A DNA stretch of 64,000 nucleotides, from the NCBI RefSeq assembly GCF_963921235.1, contig NC_086097.1, forward strand, positions 29,142,001 to 29,206,000. Reading direction: 5' to 3'. A program made the position numbers and the translations under genes. The stretch is from Mobula hypostoma (taxonomy: Eukaryota). Within the stretch, counting starts at the first letter, position 1. Each line of letters opens with the position of its first letter. The notes under the pieces were generated by a model, which was given only the letters and a program-made list of their open reading frames with translations, was not told the origin of the DNA and did no database searches. Shown here piece by piece: positions 28,720 through 61,520 of this stretch.

Positions 28720-30145
28720 GAAGACTGTGATGCTCAGCTGGCTGGTATGTTCACTGAGATCTTTAACCTCTCACTTCGGCATTCGGAGATAGCTAGCTGC
28801 TTCAAGCAGGCTGCACTTATACCAGTGTCTGCGAAGATTCAATGACCATTGTCCAGTAGCACTTACATCCACTGTGATGAAGTGTTTTGAGAGGTTGGTG
28901 GTGAAACACATCACCCCCTGCCTGAGAGGTAACTTGAATCCTGTCCAGTTTGCCTACTGGCACAATCGGTCAACAGCAGATGCCATTTCATTGGCTCCTC
29001 ACTCATCCCTGGATCATCTGGACAGTGAAAATGTACACATCAGGATGTTATTCATTGACTACAGCTCGGCTTTCAGTACTATCATCCTCTCAAAATTAAT
29101 CAATAAGCTCCAAGACATTGGCTTCAATACCCCCTGGTGCAACTTGGATCCTCGATTTCCCCAGTTCATTGAGATTGGCAACAACATCTCCACAATCTCC
29201 ATCAGCACAGGTGCTCCACAAGACCGTGTGCTTAGCCTCCTGTTCCTCTCGCTTTACACTTGTGACTGTGAGGCTAAACACAGCTCCAATGCTGATGACA
29301 CCACGGTCACAGGCTGAATCAAAGGTGGTGATGAATGAGGCATATTGAAGAGAGACTGAAAATCTGGCTGAGAGGTGCCACAATGACCTTTCACTCAATG
29401 TCAGCAAGACCAAGGAGCTGATTATTGACTCAGGAGGAGGAAACCAGAGGTCCATGAGCCCGTCCACATTGGCGATTCAGAGGTGGAGAGGGTCAGCAAT
29501 TTTAAATTCCACGGTGTTATCTTTTCTGAGGATCTGTCCTGGCTGCCACACATAAATGCCATTACAAAGAAAGCACGGCAGTGTCTCTACTTTCTTAGAA
29601 GTTTGCAAAGATTCGGCATGTTGTCTAAAACCTTGACAAACTTCTATAGATGTGCAGTGGAGAGTATCATATTGGTTCCATCACAGCCTGGTATAGAAAC
29701 ACCAATGCCCTTAAATGGAAAGATCCACAGAAAGTCGTGGATATGGCCCAGTCCATCATGGGTAAATCCCTTCCCACCGCTGAGCATATCTACACAGAGC
29801 ACTGTCACAGGAAAACAGCATCCAACATCAAGGGCCTGCTACCACCCAGGTCATGCTCTCTTCCTGCTGTTGCTATCAGGAAGTAGGCACAGGAGCCTCA
29901 GGACCCACACCAACAGATTCAGGAAGAGTTATTACCTCTCAACCATCAGGTTCTTGAACCAGAGGGGATAACTTCAACCAACTTCACTTGCCCCATCACT
30001 GAACTGTTCTCACAGCCTATAGATTCATTTTCAAGGACTCTTCACCTAATGTTCTCAATATTTATTGCTTATTTATTCATTATTATTATTATTTTCTCTT
30101 TTTGTATTTGTGCAGTTTGTTGGCTTTTGGACATTGGCGTTTGTC
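28720..30145 (+). mobile_element. Rex1/Babar-like LINE, 5'-truncated (RT to 3'UTR), frameshifted
   Basis: MKCFERLV..QFAY..NRSTADAI..RMLFIDYSSAF..TGAPQ..ADDTTV; ERVSNFKF.G..KKARQ.LYFLR.L..TNFYRCAVESI; HPGHALF.LL.SG.R.RSLRT.T.RF..SYY. Confidence 0.92.
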
Positions 30146-32700: not shown

Positions 32701-32998
32701 TCCTTTTGAACACCCTGCCAGGGGTGGTAATAGGGGCAGATACAATAGGGGCATTTAAGAAGCTCTTAGATAGGCACATGGATGATAGAAAAATGGAGAG
32801 CTATGTAGGAGGGAAGGGTTAGATTGATCTTCGAGTAGGTTAAAGTTTGGCACAACATCATGGCCGAAAGTCCTGTACTGTGCTGTAATGTTCTATGTTT
32901 TATGTCTTCTAAGAACCTTTAACCCCCAGAGGGATGTAGGTATTTTACCAGGGGTAGGGGAGCCTACAACTAGAGGACATAGAGGAAAGATTAGGAGG

Positions 32999-33648
32999 TA
33001 ATGGCATGCTGGCCTTCATAACAAGGGGAATTGAGTATAGGAGCAAAGAGGTCCTTCTGCAGCTGTACAGGGCCCTGGTGAGACCACACCTGGAGTACTG
33101 TGTGCAGTTTTGGTCTCCAAATTTGAGGAAGGGCATTCTTGCTATTGAGGGAGTGCAGCATAGGTTCACAAGGTTAACTCCCGGGATGACGGGACTGTCA
33201 TATGTCGAAAGATTGGAGCGACTGGGCTTGTATACTCTGGAATTTAGAAGGCTGAGAGGGGATCTTATTGAAACGTATAAGATTATTAAGAGATTGGACA
33301 CGCTGCAGGTAGGAAGCATGTTCCCGCTGATGGGTGAGTCCAGAACCAGAGGCCACAGTTTAAGAATTAGGAGTAGGCCATTTAGAACGGAGTTGAGGAA
33401 AAACTTTTTCACCCAGAGAGTGGTGGATATATGGAATGCTCTGCCCCAGAAGGCTGTGGAGGCCAAGTCTCTGGATGCTTTCAAAAAAGAGATGGATAGA
33501 GCTCTTAAAGATAGCGGAATCAAAGGTTATGGGGATAAGGCAGGAACTGGATACTGATTGTGGATGATCAGCCATGATCACAGTGAATGGCGGTGCTGGC
33601 TCGAAGGGCCGAATGGCCTACTCCTGCACCCATTGTCTGTTGTCTGTT
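32999..33648 (+). mobile_element. Young 5'-truncated CR1 with uninterrupted ORF2 C-terminus
   Basis: ORF 33006-33557 runs open for 183 aa to its stop (LQLYRALVRPHLEYCVQFWSP..SRTRGHSLRI..FFTQRVVDIWNALP); tail ttgtctgttgtctgttg. Confidence 0.93.
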
Positions 33649-44322: not shown

Positions 44323-46440
44323 GTTACAGACAAGCAGGCAATAAGGAGCGATGTAGATTGTGAGATCAAGACTTCACGAGTTCATCTTTCGGCATATGAG
44401 AAACCTATCCGGAAGCCTGATAACAGCGAGGTCCTTAGGCCCGGTGGTTCGTGCTCTCAGGGTTTTGGAACTTCCTCCTGATGGGGTGGGGGTGTTGTGA
44501 GGAGAGGATGACCAGGGTGGGTGGGGTCGTTGATTATGTTGACTGCATTCCCGAGGCAGTGGGGAGTGTAGACAGAGCCTGTGGAGGGGAGGCTGGTTTG
44601 CATGATGGACTGGTACACAGGTTGGAAAGCTCTAGAGGGCCAAAGTGGGACTAGCTCAGATAGACATTGTGGCTGCCATGGGTGAGTTGGGCCGAAGGGC
44701 CTCCTTTGTGCTGTATGATTCTATGCTCCATAAGTAACAGTGTGGGTTCTGGCACCTTGTTACTGGAATCGGGAATTTGGATGAGTGTCTAACAGCAATC
44801 TCCACTAACAACCTCACCTCCAATATCCATGGTCCACACTGGAATACACCGTGGGGTCTGATCTCCCGTCGTTCCCCCTCCACCCCCCCCACCTTGCCTT
44901 TCAGTGTGGCCTGTCGCAGCACTTCCACTTAGACTGGGAACCCTGTCTCCAATAGTCAAAGTCAAGATAAATTTATCATTAGAGCATGTACTGTATATGT
45001 TACCAGAAACTACCCTGAGATTTGTTTTCTTGCAAGGGATTTACAGGAAAATAAAGCAATACAATACAATTTACAATTACGAATAAAATACAATACAAAA
45101 CTACTGACAAAGAACCGGTTTGCAAAAGAAGACAAATTGTCCAAACTTTAAAAAATAATATTGCGACTGTGAGTTGTAGAGTCCTTGGAAGTGAGTCTGT
45201 AGGTTGTGGAATCAGTTCAGTGTTGGGGTGAGTGCAGTTATCCGCGCTGGTTCAGGAGGCTGATGCTTGTAGGGTAACAACCGTTCATGAGGCTGGTGGT
45301 GAGGGACCTAACCCCAGATTACCCCCCCACTCCACCATTCCCTCCACCCCACCACCGTCTCTCCATACCCCTTGGGGGCCCCTCTAAGCCTGAGGTAAAC
45401 AGCACAACCAGCGAAAGCGGTGCACGACAGTGGAAAATTGCTTGGGGTCTGCTTAAGAAAATAATAAGGGGATGTAAAAATCACAAAATAAATTGTTTTA
45501 AATCACAATCAAACATGTGCAGGAGCCAAGGGCTGCTAATATCAGTTTCTAGAATGAAGTCACTGAAATCACATTACAGCATTCAAATTTCTCTGGTGGA
45601 ACGCTCCCCTGCCAAAGTATCATCTTTCCCAGAAAAAGCTCTCAAGCATCATTTTTGATTTTTCTCCTTGATTGTGATGAAGTAATTTGCCTCAACCCAC
45701 AGTAGTGAACAGAACCTCAGGGGCCTGGGCTCGATCTACTCCCCCACTAACCTCCCGTCCTTTATTAGATAAACTCAATGTTGATCCTGCGTAATATGCA
45801 CTCTGGGCCGTGAATTACCAGCCAATTAAGCGCGGCAGAATTTACTTTGGCTCGGGACGAGGTGAGGTATTTAATCTTGATGTTTCTTCTGCTCCTGCCT
45901 ATATCATTGGTGGAGCAAGCTGCCGACTGATGAAGTTGAAAGAGATTAATTGAAATCAGCAGTCTCATGCAAAGGACTTAAAGCAATTTTCTTTGACTCC
46001 TAGACTGCTTGATAGAGTTAGGCGGGCAAGTGGCCAAAGATTTTATTTTTCCTGCCTATGTTATTAGTGGCCGGGGGGTTGATGGGAACGAAAGGGCGAA
46101 GGAATTGGTGGGATAATACTGAATGGCTGAGATCATTTTCGGGACAGCTTCTTCCCCTCCGCCATCAGATTTCTAAACAGCCCATGAACCCATGAACACT
46201 ACCTCACTATTCCTTTTTTTAACAACCCATTCCACCGCCATTTTGCTCCACAATCCTTACCTTAAACCGATCAACCTCTGCCTTAAGTACACCAAATAAT
46301 TTGGCCTCCACAACCAGGCTGTGGCAAAGAATGCCACAGCTTCAGCACACTCTGGCTATGGAAATTCCTCCACATCTCTGTGCTCAAAGGTTGCTCCTTT
46401 AGAACATTCTGACTAGTTGCATCACCATATGGTATGGAGA

Positions 46441-46662
46441 CAAGAGAGAATCTGCAGATGCTGAAATCCGAGCAGCACACACAACATGCTGGAGGAACTC
46501 AGCAGGCCAGGCAGCATCCGTGAAAAAAAAGTACAGTTGACGTTTTGGGCCGAGACTCCTCGGCAGGACTTCAGCGTCCTACTGAAAGGTTTTGGCCTGA
46601 AACTTTGACTGTAGTTTTCTTCCATAGATGCCGCCTGGCCTGCCGAGTTCCTCCAGCATTTT
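46441..46662. mobile_element. Fold-back Penelope-derived element with perfect 14-bp TSD
   Basis: Inverted arms ~46487-46569 and ~46576-46660; ATATGGTATGGAGA at 46427-46440 and 46663-46676. Confidence 0.88.
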
Positions 46663-46694
46663 ATATGGTATGGAGAAATGAATTATTCCGTCAA

Positions 46695-47050
46695 GGACAC
46701 CAGCTCCCCACCATCAAGGTTATCTTCAATAGACAATGCCTCAAGAAGGCAACATCCATCATTAAGGACCCCCACCACCCAGGGCATGTCCTCTTCTCAT
46801 TGCTACCATCCTGGAGGAGGTACAACAACTTGAAGACCCATTTTAGAAGCATGTCCTTTCCCTCCGGCATTAGATTTCTGAACAGACTTTGAACCCATGA
46901 ACATCACCTCACTAATTTTGCTCTCTTTTTGCCTATTTAATTTTTAAAATATTTCTTCCTGTAACTCATAGTATATTTTACGTATTGCGCTGTAACGCTT
47001 CCGCAAAACGACAAATTTCACAACGTATGTCAGTGATAGTAAATCTGATC
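46695..47050 (+). mobile_element. Rex1-like 3' end
   Basis: CLKKATSIIKDPHHPGHVLFSLLPSWRRY..FPSGIRFLN; tail cagtgatagtaaatctgat. Confidence 0.82.
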
Positions 47051-54715: not shown

Positions 54716-54729
54716 AGTAATCAACCAAT

Positions 54730-54934
54730 GACAAACAAGAGAGAATCTGCAGATGCCAGAAATCCAAGTAACACACGCAAAATGCTGGAGGAAGTCAGCA
54801 TCTGTGGAAAAGAGGAAACAGTCGACGGTTCGGGCTGAGACCCTTTGACAGTACTCTTGGCCCGAAGCATCGACTGTACTCTTTTCTGTAGATGCTGCCT
54901 GGCCTGCTGAGCTCCTCCAGCATTTTGTGTGTGT
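54730..54934. mobile_element. Fold-back Penelope-derived element with perfect 12-bp TSD
   Basis: aacacacgcaaaatgctggagga.. / ..ctcctccagcattttgtgtgtgtt inverted arms; TAATCAACCAAT at 54718-54729 and 54935-54946. Confidence 0.88.
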
Positions 54935-55339
54935 TAATCAACCAATTTATTATTTTACCAATTACGCCTTGACAATTCAAGTGTTTATCCAGATGCTTGG
55001 TAAAGGTCATGAAAATTTGCCTCCTCCCCCACTTCAGACAATGCATTCCAGATGGAACCACCCTCTGGGTGAGAAGAATTCCTCCTCATATCTCCTCTAA
55101 ATCTCTTCCTCGTCACTGTACGTCTATGGGGATAGGTTTGTTACTGTCCCATGTACTAAGATTTTCTCTTTGGAGCGGGGGAGGATGAGAAGAAACTTGA
55201 CAGAGTAACTTGTAGTAGATGATAAGAAGCATAGGTTGAAGTGGACAACCAGAGACTTTTTTCCCCAGGGTGGAAATGGCTAAAATGAAGGGGGCACAAT
55301 TTCAAGGTGATTGGGGGGGGATGTCAGAAGTAGGTTTTC

Positions 55340-60313: not shown

Positions 60314-61520
60314 TTGAGTGTACGTTCAGGGTCTTCTGCTCTGTAGCCCACCACTTCAAGGTTCAATTTGCTGTGCATTCAGAGATACTGTTCTGCACAC
60401 CACTGTTGTAACACATGGTTATTTGAGTTACTGTTCCCTTGTCAGCTGGATCAGTCCGGCCATTCTCCTCTGACCTCTCTCAATAACAAGGCATTTTCAC
60501 CCACAGAACTGCCACTCACTGGAATTTTTTTTTGTTTCTTGCACTATTCTCTGTAAAAACTACAGAGACTGTTGTGTGTGGAAATCCCAGGAGATCAGCA
60601 GTTTCTGAGATACTCAAACCACGCCGTCTGGCATCAACAATCATTCCACGGTCAAAGTCACTCAGATCACATTTCTTCCCCATTCTGATGTTTGGTCTGA
60701 ACAACAACTGAACCTCTTAACCATGTCTGCATGCTTTTATACATCGAGTTGCTGCCACGTGATTGGCTGATTAGATATTTGCACTAACGAACAGCAGTAC
60801 AAATGTGCTTAAGGGAGGAGAAGATGGCGGCGCGACGCAGTGCGTGCGGCCTCTCCTGTGATGAATATCTGTAATCTGTCAAGTAGGAGGCCGTGCACAA
60901 TTCTGATTTGATGGAGACGGACATGCGAGCACGGAGGAACATCTGGTGAAACTTCTGAAATGCCTGTTTCGCTGCCACTGCTACTGTGTAATCCGAAATC
61001 TCCAGAGGGGAAGGCCCCAAATCCTCGGCTTTGCCTGTTGCTTGGCGGCCGGGGCAGGGGTCGAAGCGCTAGGCAGAGATGGTGCTTGGTGCTCGGTGTC
61101 AGAGGGCTGGTCGGAGGCTTGAAGTTTTCGGACGGACTCAGAGTTGGACTGTGGTCGGGTGCTTCCAGGATGCTGCATCGGCAAGTTTGCGGCGCTGGAA
61201 GCTCACGGCAGGGAGAGTTTCTCCCTTCTACTGTCTGCGTGAGATGATGAGGCTATCGGGACTTTGAGACTTTTTTTTTACCGTGCCCATGGTCTGCTCT
61301 TTATCAAATTATGGTATTACTTTGCACTGTTGTAACTATATGTTATAATTATGTGGTTTTTGTCAGTTTTAGTCTTGGTCTGTCTTGTGTTTCTGTGATA
61401 TCATACTGGAGGAACATTGTATCATTTTTTAATGCATGCATTACTAAATGACAATAAACGAGGACTGAGTGTCCTCATAATCTAATCTAATCTAATCTAA
61501 TAAAGTTGCCACAGAGTGTA
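60314..61520 (-). mobile_element. Deleted Tc1-like DNA transposon (N-terminal HTH region only), terminus split by retroposon copy C
   Basis: ORF 60516-60707 MGKKCDLSDFDRGMIVDARRRGLSISETADLLGFPHTTVS is a Tc1-type paired-like HTH; homology continues frameshifted to ~60330; terminal taaagttgccacagagtgTA at 61501-61520. Confidence 0.85.
60813..61500 (+). mobile_element. Unclassified ~690-bp non-coding retroposon, copy C
   Basis: gggaggagAAGATGGCGGC start, (tctaa)4 tail, collinear with copies A and B plus a ~45-bp extra segment. Confidence 0.9.

What the first reader, a model, noticed from the sequence alone, without database searches (positions are those of the whole stretch)
46427..46676. 222-bp fold-back element made of two inverted hammerhead-containing arms, with a perfect 14-bp TSD
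Seen: arms of ~85 bp meet at caggac-ttcagc-gtcct, and each ends in a degenerate hammerhead (left rc GTC CTGCCGA..AAAA CGTC AACTG; right GTC CTACTGA..GAAA CTTT GACTG). ATATGGTATGGAGA flanks both sides, so the palindrome arrived in one insertion event. Inference: either a MITE-like non-autonomous Penelope derivative presenting a ribozyme on both strands (retrozyme-like), or the product of Penelope's known inverted-pLTR integration. A transcript would form a long hairpin.
Basis: partly seen in the sequence, partly recalled or inferred. Interest (0 to 1): 0.7.

Follow-up and report, generated by a model that had tools for sequence, protein, structure and literature searches.

The report
Dead head-to-head Penelope retroelement insertion
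This 222-base hairpin-shaped insert is an old, decayed scrap of a Penelope-like jumping gene, laid down as two head-to-head end pieces in the way already described for this class, so it is real but ordinary.

Summary
In detail: an exact 14-bp direct repeat flanks 222 bp made of a 42-bp one-sided extension, two 87-bp inverted arms (20 mismatches) and a 6-bp spacer. The arms are the hammerhead-bearing 3' end of a very high-copy Penelope-like element (PLE); a sister copy in the window links them to a GIY-YIG-type endonuclease end. Inverted 5'-truncated ends, a tail on one side and a target-site duplication are the published PLE insertion pattern. A self-propagating palindromic family is disfavoured: a second fold-back in the window has another junction and its own 12-bp duplication, and in four sequencing runs summed depth at the spacer is 0.03-0.4% of that 16 bases inside the left arm. 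Both hammerhead cores carry disabling changes, and the hairpin would mask them. Three other organisms carry the insertion's left junction, so it is old; no empty site was seen. Most likely mechanism: both nicked target strands primed reverse transcription, at the two PLE start sites, and the short products were joined. The scan has noted this pattern before, in this genome and in another. Verdict: already known, low interest.

The parts
46427..46440 (+). Left copy of target-site duplication (14 bp); belongs to the host LINE sequence
   Evidence: left flank aligns through this motif to uninterrupted LINE copies
46441..46482 (-). One-sided 42-bp PLE 'tail' (3' extension to the far start site)
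   Evidence: no partner in right arm; same extension in copies at 2.4k, 27k and 54k-left
46483..46569 (-). Left arm: 5'-truncated PLE 3' end, element sense on minus strand
46534..46571 (-). Decayed minimal type I hammerhead layout, left arm (A6C as in its subfamily, G12A, one mismatch in stem II, mismatch at the base pair next to the cut site)
46570..46575 (.). 6-bp spacer at the head-to-head junction
   Evidence: spanned without differences by a contig of run X1, 46529-46651
46576..46662 (+). Right arm: 5'-truncated PLE 3' end, ending at the near start site (no tail)
46574..46611 (+). Decayed minimal type I hammerhead layout, right arm (G5A, A6C, palindromic stem III broken)
46663..46676 (+). 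Right copy of target-site duplication
   Evidence: present in organism C contig 46640-46760
46401..46931 (+). Host: 3' fragment of an older LINE interrupted by the insert (matches at 46401-46440 and 46687-46931); lacks about 32-42 bp just right of the right duplication. Family name Rex1/Babar-type is recalled, not from a call
   Evidence: a sister copy carries RVT_1 (28793-29314) and PF09004 (29429-29968)
54718..54946 (.). Comparison locus: second fold-back PLE insert (54730-54934) with tail on the left only, a different junction and an exact 12-bp duplication (54718-54729, 54935-54946)
16017..16444 (-). Comparison locus: direct 5'-truncated PLE copy of the same subfamily, with the endonuclease C-terminus (P0001) upstream of the hammerhead and a 12-bp duplication with one mismatch

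Best explanation
A dead-on-arrival insertion of an endonuclease-bearing Penelope-like element (PLE), made in one event inside an older LINE. The GIY-YIG endonuclease nicked both target strands about 14 bp apart (inferred from the duplication). Each 3' end primed reverse transcription on PLE RNA, one at the far start site (giving the 42-bp tail) and one at the near site (inferred from the in vitro behaviour of an anole PLE). Both cDNAs stopped after about 90-130 nt, at the 5' edge of the hammerhead, and were joined head to head through a 6-bp spacer; gap filling made the duplication (inferred). The palindrome arose at integration and was not copied as a unit. The hammerheads are passengers of the PLE terminal repeat, have since decayed, and would be locked in the hairpin in any read-through RNA. 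Shown: anatomy, duplication, PLE identity of the arms, variable junctions, presence in other organisms, damaged cores. Inferred: the priming and joining steps.
For: (1) Arms match at least 13 other PLE-end fragments in the window and reach summed depths of millions in four runs. [quoted passage not shown] (3) Published pattern: adjacent inverted pLTR, optional 31-bp tail on one inverted end, 9-10-bp TSD (PMC3846280, passages); inverted 5'-truncated copy and 30-40-bp one-sided tail (PMC8557442, passages); both strands cleaved and extended, with two adjacent RT start sites defining the tail (PMC11167929, parts 1-2 of 4). (4) Second fold-back at 54.7k has the same long-end/short-end asymmetry, another junction and its own duplication. 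(5) Depth at spacer base 46575 is 40, 138, 108 and 126 in X1, X5, X9, X10, against 35,000-405,000 at 46559 and 5,000-45,000 at 46606. (6) Arm-to-arm joints fall at many places, each in 1-8 contigs; four with known spacer letters in X5 (46497>46630, 46506>46623, 46518>46617, 46528>46614) all differ from this one. (7) Uninterrupted host-LINE copies show the 14-mer motif once.
Against: No orthologous empty site was found: the three other organisms laid all carry at least the left junction, so the duplication is inferred from paralogous LINE copies. Only 15 of 581 joints and 12 of 14 indel rows were shown, X9 and X10 were not fully counted, and most joints have unknown letters between, so some may be fold-backs of similar size. 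One X1 contig (46487-46603, 13 differences, 6 gap letters) is a paralogue turning within a few bases of the same point. A perfect 14/14 duplication beside arms 18-23% apart has probability 0.03-0.06 under equal rates. No PLE reverse transcriptase was found or tested in the window. Two-ended priming is not separated from self-priming at this locus.
Confidence: 0.88

Rival explanations
1. Same PLE origin, but the fold-back arose by self-priming: one cDNA (or an antisense template, as proposed for rotifer PLEs) folded back at the hammerhead's 5' edge and copied itself. This is a variant of mechanism within the best explanation, not a different identity.
For: PMC3846280 reads palindromic inverted junctions as self-priming (passage). 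Both 46k arms share subfamily states: the CTGGCC variant and a 16-nt segment where the 16k and 54k-right copies have 15. The arms abut with a 6-nt loop.
Against: The 54k fold-back has arms that differ in that segment (17 versus 15 nt), which suggests two templates there. The anole protein extends both strands in vitro (PMC11167929). Identical arms are also expected if both came from one tandem transcript.
Confidence: 0.3
2. A self-propagating non-autonomous palindromic family (MITE-like or retrozyme-like) whose hairpin RNA is mobilised in trans by PLE protein.
For: Either strand's transcript would end in a sense PLE end with a start site. One X1 paralogue turns near the same point, and many joints have unknown middles.
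Against: Spacer depth is 0.03-0.4% of left-arm depth and 0.3-1.4% of right-arm depth; the best-supported joints listed reach at most depth 144 in X5, about 4 loci; the other in-window fold-back differs; retrozymes are head-to-tail tandems (bioRxiv 10.64898/2026.07.22.740005, passages); cores are damaged.
Confidence: 0.05
3. Two independent PLE insertions, one into or beside the other, or a later deletion that removed the middle of a longer inverted insertion.
For: PLE ends are dense (17 arms in 64 kb); PLEs tend to insert next to earlier copies (PMC6765202, passage); the arms are 23% apart.
Against: One duplication encloses both arms and there is no second one at the junction; arms share subfamily states; solo copies at 2.4k and 24k start at the same point with no inverted partner, so no deletion is needed.
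Confidence: 0.05
4. Assembly or sequencing fold-back artefact.
For: Inverted chimeras are a known artefact (own knowledge).
Against: Arms differ at 20 of 87 sites; an X1 contig spans the junction with no difference (X1 may be the window's own sample); junctions with the flanks occur in three other organisms.
Confidence: 0.01

Closest known systems
Inverted-pLTR insertions of endonuclease-bearing Penelope-like elements, e.g. Pen2a_Av of Adineta vaga (PMC3846280, passages) and the general scheme in PMC8557442 (passages)
   Same: Head-to-head inverted 5'-truncated end, tail on one end only, one TSD around the whole insert
   Different: Reduced to two end fragments with no ORF; tail 42 bp rather than 30-40; TSD 14 rather than 8-10; a 6-bp spacer rather than an overlap at the junction
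PAc (Poseidon of Anolis carolinensis) in vitro reaction (PMC11167929, parts 1-2 of 4)
   Same: Two adjacent start sites bracket the tail; both target strands cleaved and extended
   Different: PAc starts in an AC-rich stem loop, whereas the near end here is GU-rich on the sense strand; relatives of this element's endonuclease have the cysteine linker that Penelope/Poseidon lacks
Minimal type I hammerheads of metazoan PLEs (PMC4209133, parts 1-2 of 4)
   Same: Extra base between position 9 and stem II, palindromic 15.2-16.2, no stable stem III; that paper already notes pairs of motifs 100-700 bp apart on opposite strands in Schistosoma
   Different: Stem II here is 3 bp; the subfamily has A6C; both copies at this locus have further core damage
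Non-LTR retrozymes (bioRxiv 10.64898/2026.07.22.740005, passages)
   Same: Short, non-coding, PLE-derived, hammerhead-bearing
   Different: Retrozymes are head-to-tail tandem arrays; this is a single head-to-head insert with a TSD

Membership tests
EN+ Penelope-like element (insertion derived from) | Terminal repeat linked to a C-terminal GIY-YIG endonuclease | tested here: met
   Through the 16k sister copy: P0001 relatives with GIY-YIG motifs; Pfam hits are weak and P0001 itself has none
EN+ Penelope-like element (insertion derived from) | Telomerase-like PLE reverse transcriptase in the parent element | not tested
   No copy in the window reaches the RT; no genome held
EN+ Penelope-like element (insertion derived from) | Minimal type I hammerhead in the pLTR | tested here: met
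   Layout present in 7 in-register arms of 9 laid out; no Rfam hit
EN+ Penelope-like element (insertion derived from) | Inverted 5'-truncated copy adjoining, with 30-40-bp tail on one end | tested here: met
   tail is 42 bp
EN+ Penelope-like element (insertion derived from) | Variable-length TSD around the whole insert | tested here: met
   14 bp here, 12 bp at 54k and 16k; null scores never above 9 in 600 intervals; empty site not seen
Neptune/Nematis clade of PLEs | CX2-5CxxC linker upstream of GIY-YIG; RT phylogeny | tested here: inconclusive
   Linker seen in relatives P0013 and P0039, not in a window copy; no RT tree
MITE-like self-propagating palindromic family | Many dispersed copies with the same internal junction and ends | tested here: not met
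MITE (class II) | Terminal inverted repeats reaching both ends and a short fixed TSD (recalled definition) | tested here: not met
   42-bp unpaired end; TSDs of 12-14 bp with different sequences
Non-LTR retrozyme | Head-to-tail tandem repeats of a hammerhead unit | tested here: not met
   No tandem array at the locus; orientation is head to head
Non-LTR retrozyme | Circular RNA and self-cleavage | not testable with these tools
   No RNA run laid
Active hammerhead ribozyme | Intact CUGANGA and GAAA core with paired stems | tested here: not met
   Left A6C + G12A; right G5A + A6C + broken stem III. A6C alone leaves low activity (PMC3088659 section 8)

The most novel reading that the evidence does not exclude
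The hairpin, once formed, can be re-mobilised as a unit: a read-through RNA from either strand ends in a sense PLE end with an RT start site, so PLE protein could copy the whole fold-back and found small MITE-like retroelement lineages. A 5'-end hot spot at the hammerhead's edge, where a polypyrimidine-CAG splice-acceptor-like site lies, would keep regenerating founders of about this size. The data exclude a high-copy family with this spacer, but not a low-copy lineage.
Probability: 0.05. Interest if true: 0.55.

Novelty: already known. Interest (0 to 1): 0.12.

Why it matters
As it stands it is a tidy genomic illustration of how PLE insertion ends arise: one end at each of the two start sites found in vitro, which fits priming on both strands. 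Such inserts could be misannotated as MITEs, and they seed long hairpins across the genome. It would matter more if fold-backs were shown to be re-mobilised, or if the clustering of 5' ends at the hammerhead's edge proved to mark a real RNA end or RT stop.

Tried and rejected
Rfam: no hammerhead family hit. My own strict minimal-hammerhead pattern found no intact motif on either strand of the window. Collection scans with a 21-nt arm motif gave 2, 0 and 1 hits, all chance matches limited to 21-23 nt in unrelated DNA. Expression: no RNA holder listed; no RNA run was laid. Host-gene context: 85 of 106 non-repeat ORFs of 62 aa or more were scanned against Pfam and gave no host-gene domain (two weak hits that look element-derived); short exons would be missed, so intronic or intergenic position is unknown. 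Empty site: no 46440>46677 joint among the 15 of 581 shown. In one search the 15k and 30k rows were out of register and were dropped. Turn at the ribozyme cut site: rejected, since none of 17 arms starts at the cut (+33); nearest are +18 and +46. Literature searches listed no paper on these fold-backs in cartilaginous fishes and none describing a self-propagating palindromic PLE family; the library lacks most subscription papers, and Repbase/Dfam could not be checked. No supplements were read; those of the bioRxiv retrozyme preprint (closed) may list families from its one chondrichthyan.

Full report
Observation. The sequence is as described. The 14-mer at 46427-46440 recurs exactly at 46663-46676 and nowhere else in the window; 0 of 20,000 random intervals outside tandem arrays do this. 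Between the copies lie 222 bp: 42 bp without a partner (46441-46482), an 87-bp arm, a 6-bp spacer and an 87-bp inverted arm. The arms differ at 20 of 87 sites, 17 of them transitions and 8 of CpG type. The insert folds into one long hairpin from either strand (-122.7 and -126.3 kcal/mol; z = -13.0 for the plus strand).

What the arms are. They match many dispersed fragments in the window; I counted 17 arms at 15 loci. The copy at 16029-16432 extends further upstream in element sense and encodes a 42-residue frame, P0001. P0001 has no Pfam hit itself but has 44 relatives at E<=0.001. Of 10 relatives scanned, 3 have weak GIY-YIG hits below the cut-off, and P0013 and P0039 show a CX2-5CxxC linker followed by the cysteine pair between GIY and YIG. 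PMC8557442 (passages) gives that linker as a mark of Neptune, Nematis and Naiad elements; with a C-terminal endonuclease this points to Neptune or Nematis, untested by RT phylogeny. The six relatives looked up are named records from rays and skates, several of them host gene models that have absorbed this C-terminus, so the window is probably from a cartilaginous fish (inference).

The host site. The left flank aligns through the 14-mer motif to other copies of an older LINE, and the right flank resumes that LINE further on; the uninterrupted copies show the motif once. One of five reference copies aligned poorly on the left. The second 14-mer is therefore best read as a duplication made on insertion. 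The host also lacks about 32-42 bp just right of the duplication; organism C shares this without gaps, so it is old and its order relative to the insertion is unknown.

Family or one-off? The window holds a second fold-back at 54730-54934 with an exact 12-bp duplication, a tail on one end only, and a junction where the right arm starts about 16 nt further in. Contigs of four runs were laid on 46300-46800 at 82% likeness. Summed depth is 35,000-405,000 at 46559 and 5,000-45,000 at 46606, but 40-138 at spacer base 46575, that is 0.03-0.4% and 0.3-1.4%, against single-locus contig depths of about 6-37. Much of the depth at 46575 in X5, X9 and X10 reads A, the parent element's base, not this spacer's C. 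581 joints were found and 15 shown; arm-to-arm joints sit at many positions, each in 1-8 contigs, and four X5 joints with known filler all differ from this one. Against my reading: most listed joints have unknown letters between, one X1 paralogue turns within a few bases of the same point, and X9 and X10 were not fully counted. A high-copy family with this spacer is excluded; a low-copy one is not.

Age. Contigs crossing the left flank into the insert occur in organisms B (3 differences in 198), C (11 and 2 gap letters in 164) and D (7 and 2 gap letters in 122); C also has the right junction (8 in 121). The insertion predates these splits. No empty site was listed. An X1 contig spans the junction unchanged, though X1 may be the window's own sample.

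Ribozymes. Both arms keep the layout of the minimal type I hammerhead of PLEs (PMC4209133, parts 1-2 of 4). The left has A6C, G12A, a stem II mismatch and a mismatch beside the cut site; the right has G5A, A6C and a broken palindromic stem III. A6C is shared with the 16k and 2.4k copies and with a filler read in X5, so it is a subfamily trait; alone it leaves low activity in a phage example (PMC3088659 section 8). That G5 and G12 changes abolish activity is established knowledge, recalled. In either strand's transcript the sense motif is paired with its antisense copy. 'A ribozyme on both strands' describes the layout only.

Mechanism. PMC3846280 (passages) describes an insert completed by an adjacent inverted pLTR, with an optional 31-bp tail on one inverted end and a 9-bp TSD; PMC8557442 (passages) gives this as general for PLEs. 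PMC11167929 (parts 1-2 of 4) shows a PLE protein cleaving and extending both strands and starting at two adjacent RNA sites that bracket the tail. The locus fits: one end at the far site, the other at the near site, both copies 5'-truncated and joined. Whether two primings or one priming plus snap-back made the second arm cannot be told here: the 46k arms share subfamily states, whereas the 54k arms differ in one segment.

A side pattern. 4 of 17 arms start at +1 or +2 of hammerhead stem I by the aligner, a fifth (24k) by eye, and none at the cut site. Counting the two 46k arms apart, p is about 0.01 after allowing for window choice; counting 3 of 15 loci, about 0.12. Copies that run past this point have a pyrimidine tract and, in 4 of 7, CAG there, like a splice acceptor; in Drosophila virilis Penelope the intron ends at the 5' end of helix I (PMC4209133). 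This is a lead only.

Earlier notes of this scan (AI notes, unchecked) report the same pattern in this genome and in another, and judged it ordinary. My reading was recorded before I saw them and they are not counted as evidence.

Verdict. A real single insertion; a decayed minimal case of the known inverted PLE insertion pattern; already known; interest 0.12.

Noticed in passing
window 54718-54946: Second fold-back PLE insert with exact 12-bp duplication, one-sided tail, different junction, a 12-13-bp internal deletion in the left arm, and arms that differ in one segment (17 vs 15 nt), hinting at two templates.
   Followed up: yes
window 46570, 46576, 54855, 2401, ~24427: 5' ends of PLE fragments cluster at the 5' edge of hammerhead stem I, where longer copies have a pyrimidine tract plus CAG resembling a splice acceptor; p 0.01-0.12 depending on counting.
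   Followed up: partly
window 16017-16444: Direct 5'-truncated PLE copy with an open 42-codon endonuclease C-terminus and a 12-bp duplication, inserted in the same kind of LINE.
   Followed up: yes
window 16k, 24k, 46k: 3 of 15 PLE inserts sit inside the 3' part of one LINE family that covers 6% of the window (p = 0.06); the 2.4k insert also looks LINE-flanked by eye. Possible weak target bias or chance.
   Followed up: partly
window 46483-46662: Arm mismatches concentrate towards the hairpin centre: 17 of the inner 51 versus 3 of the outer 36 (p = 0.009; 0.04 without CpG sites). Unexplained beyond CpG decay.
   Followed up: partly
window 2373-2400: 28 extra bases between the host and the 5' end of the 2.4k PLE copy, purine-rich and holding an 8-bp inverted match to the copy's start; may be a very short inverted piece.
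   Followed up: no
window 46570-46575: The 6-bp spacer resembles, with one mismatch, a hexamer just upstream in the left arm; could be templated filler or chance.
   Followed up: no
proteins P0002, P0003, P0009: Public ray and skate gene models (vitamin K epoxide reductase-like, ATP synthase subunit C3-like, neuromedin-U receptor 1) carry the PLE endonuclease C-terminus: exonisation or annotation artefact.
   Followed up: no
window 13806-13911: Another abutting inverted repeat, 53-bp arms at 85%, unrelated to the PLE ends, just before a 1.1-kb (AC)n array.
   Followed up: no
window 19637-22909 and 32958-33557: Decayed CR1-like LINE frames (RT, endonuclease-like and an SGNH/OSK-like ORF1); family name recalled.
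   Followed up: no
window 60519-60716 (-): Short frame with weak helix-turn-helix hits, possibly a DNA transposon relic.
   Followed up: no
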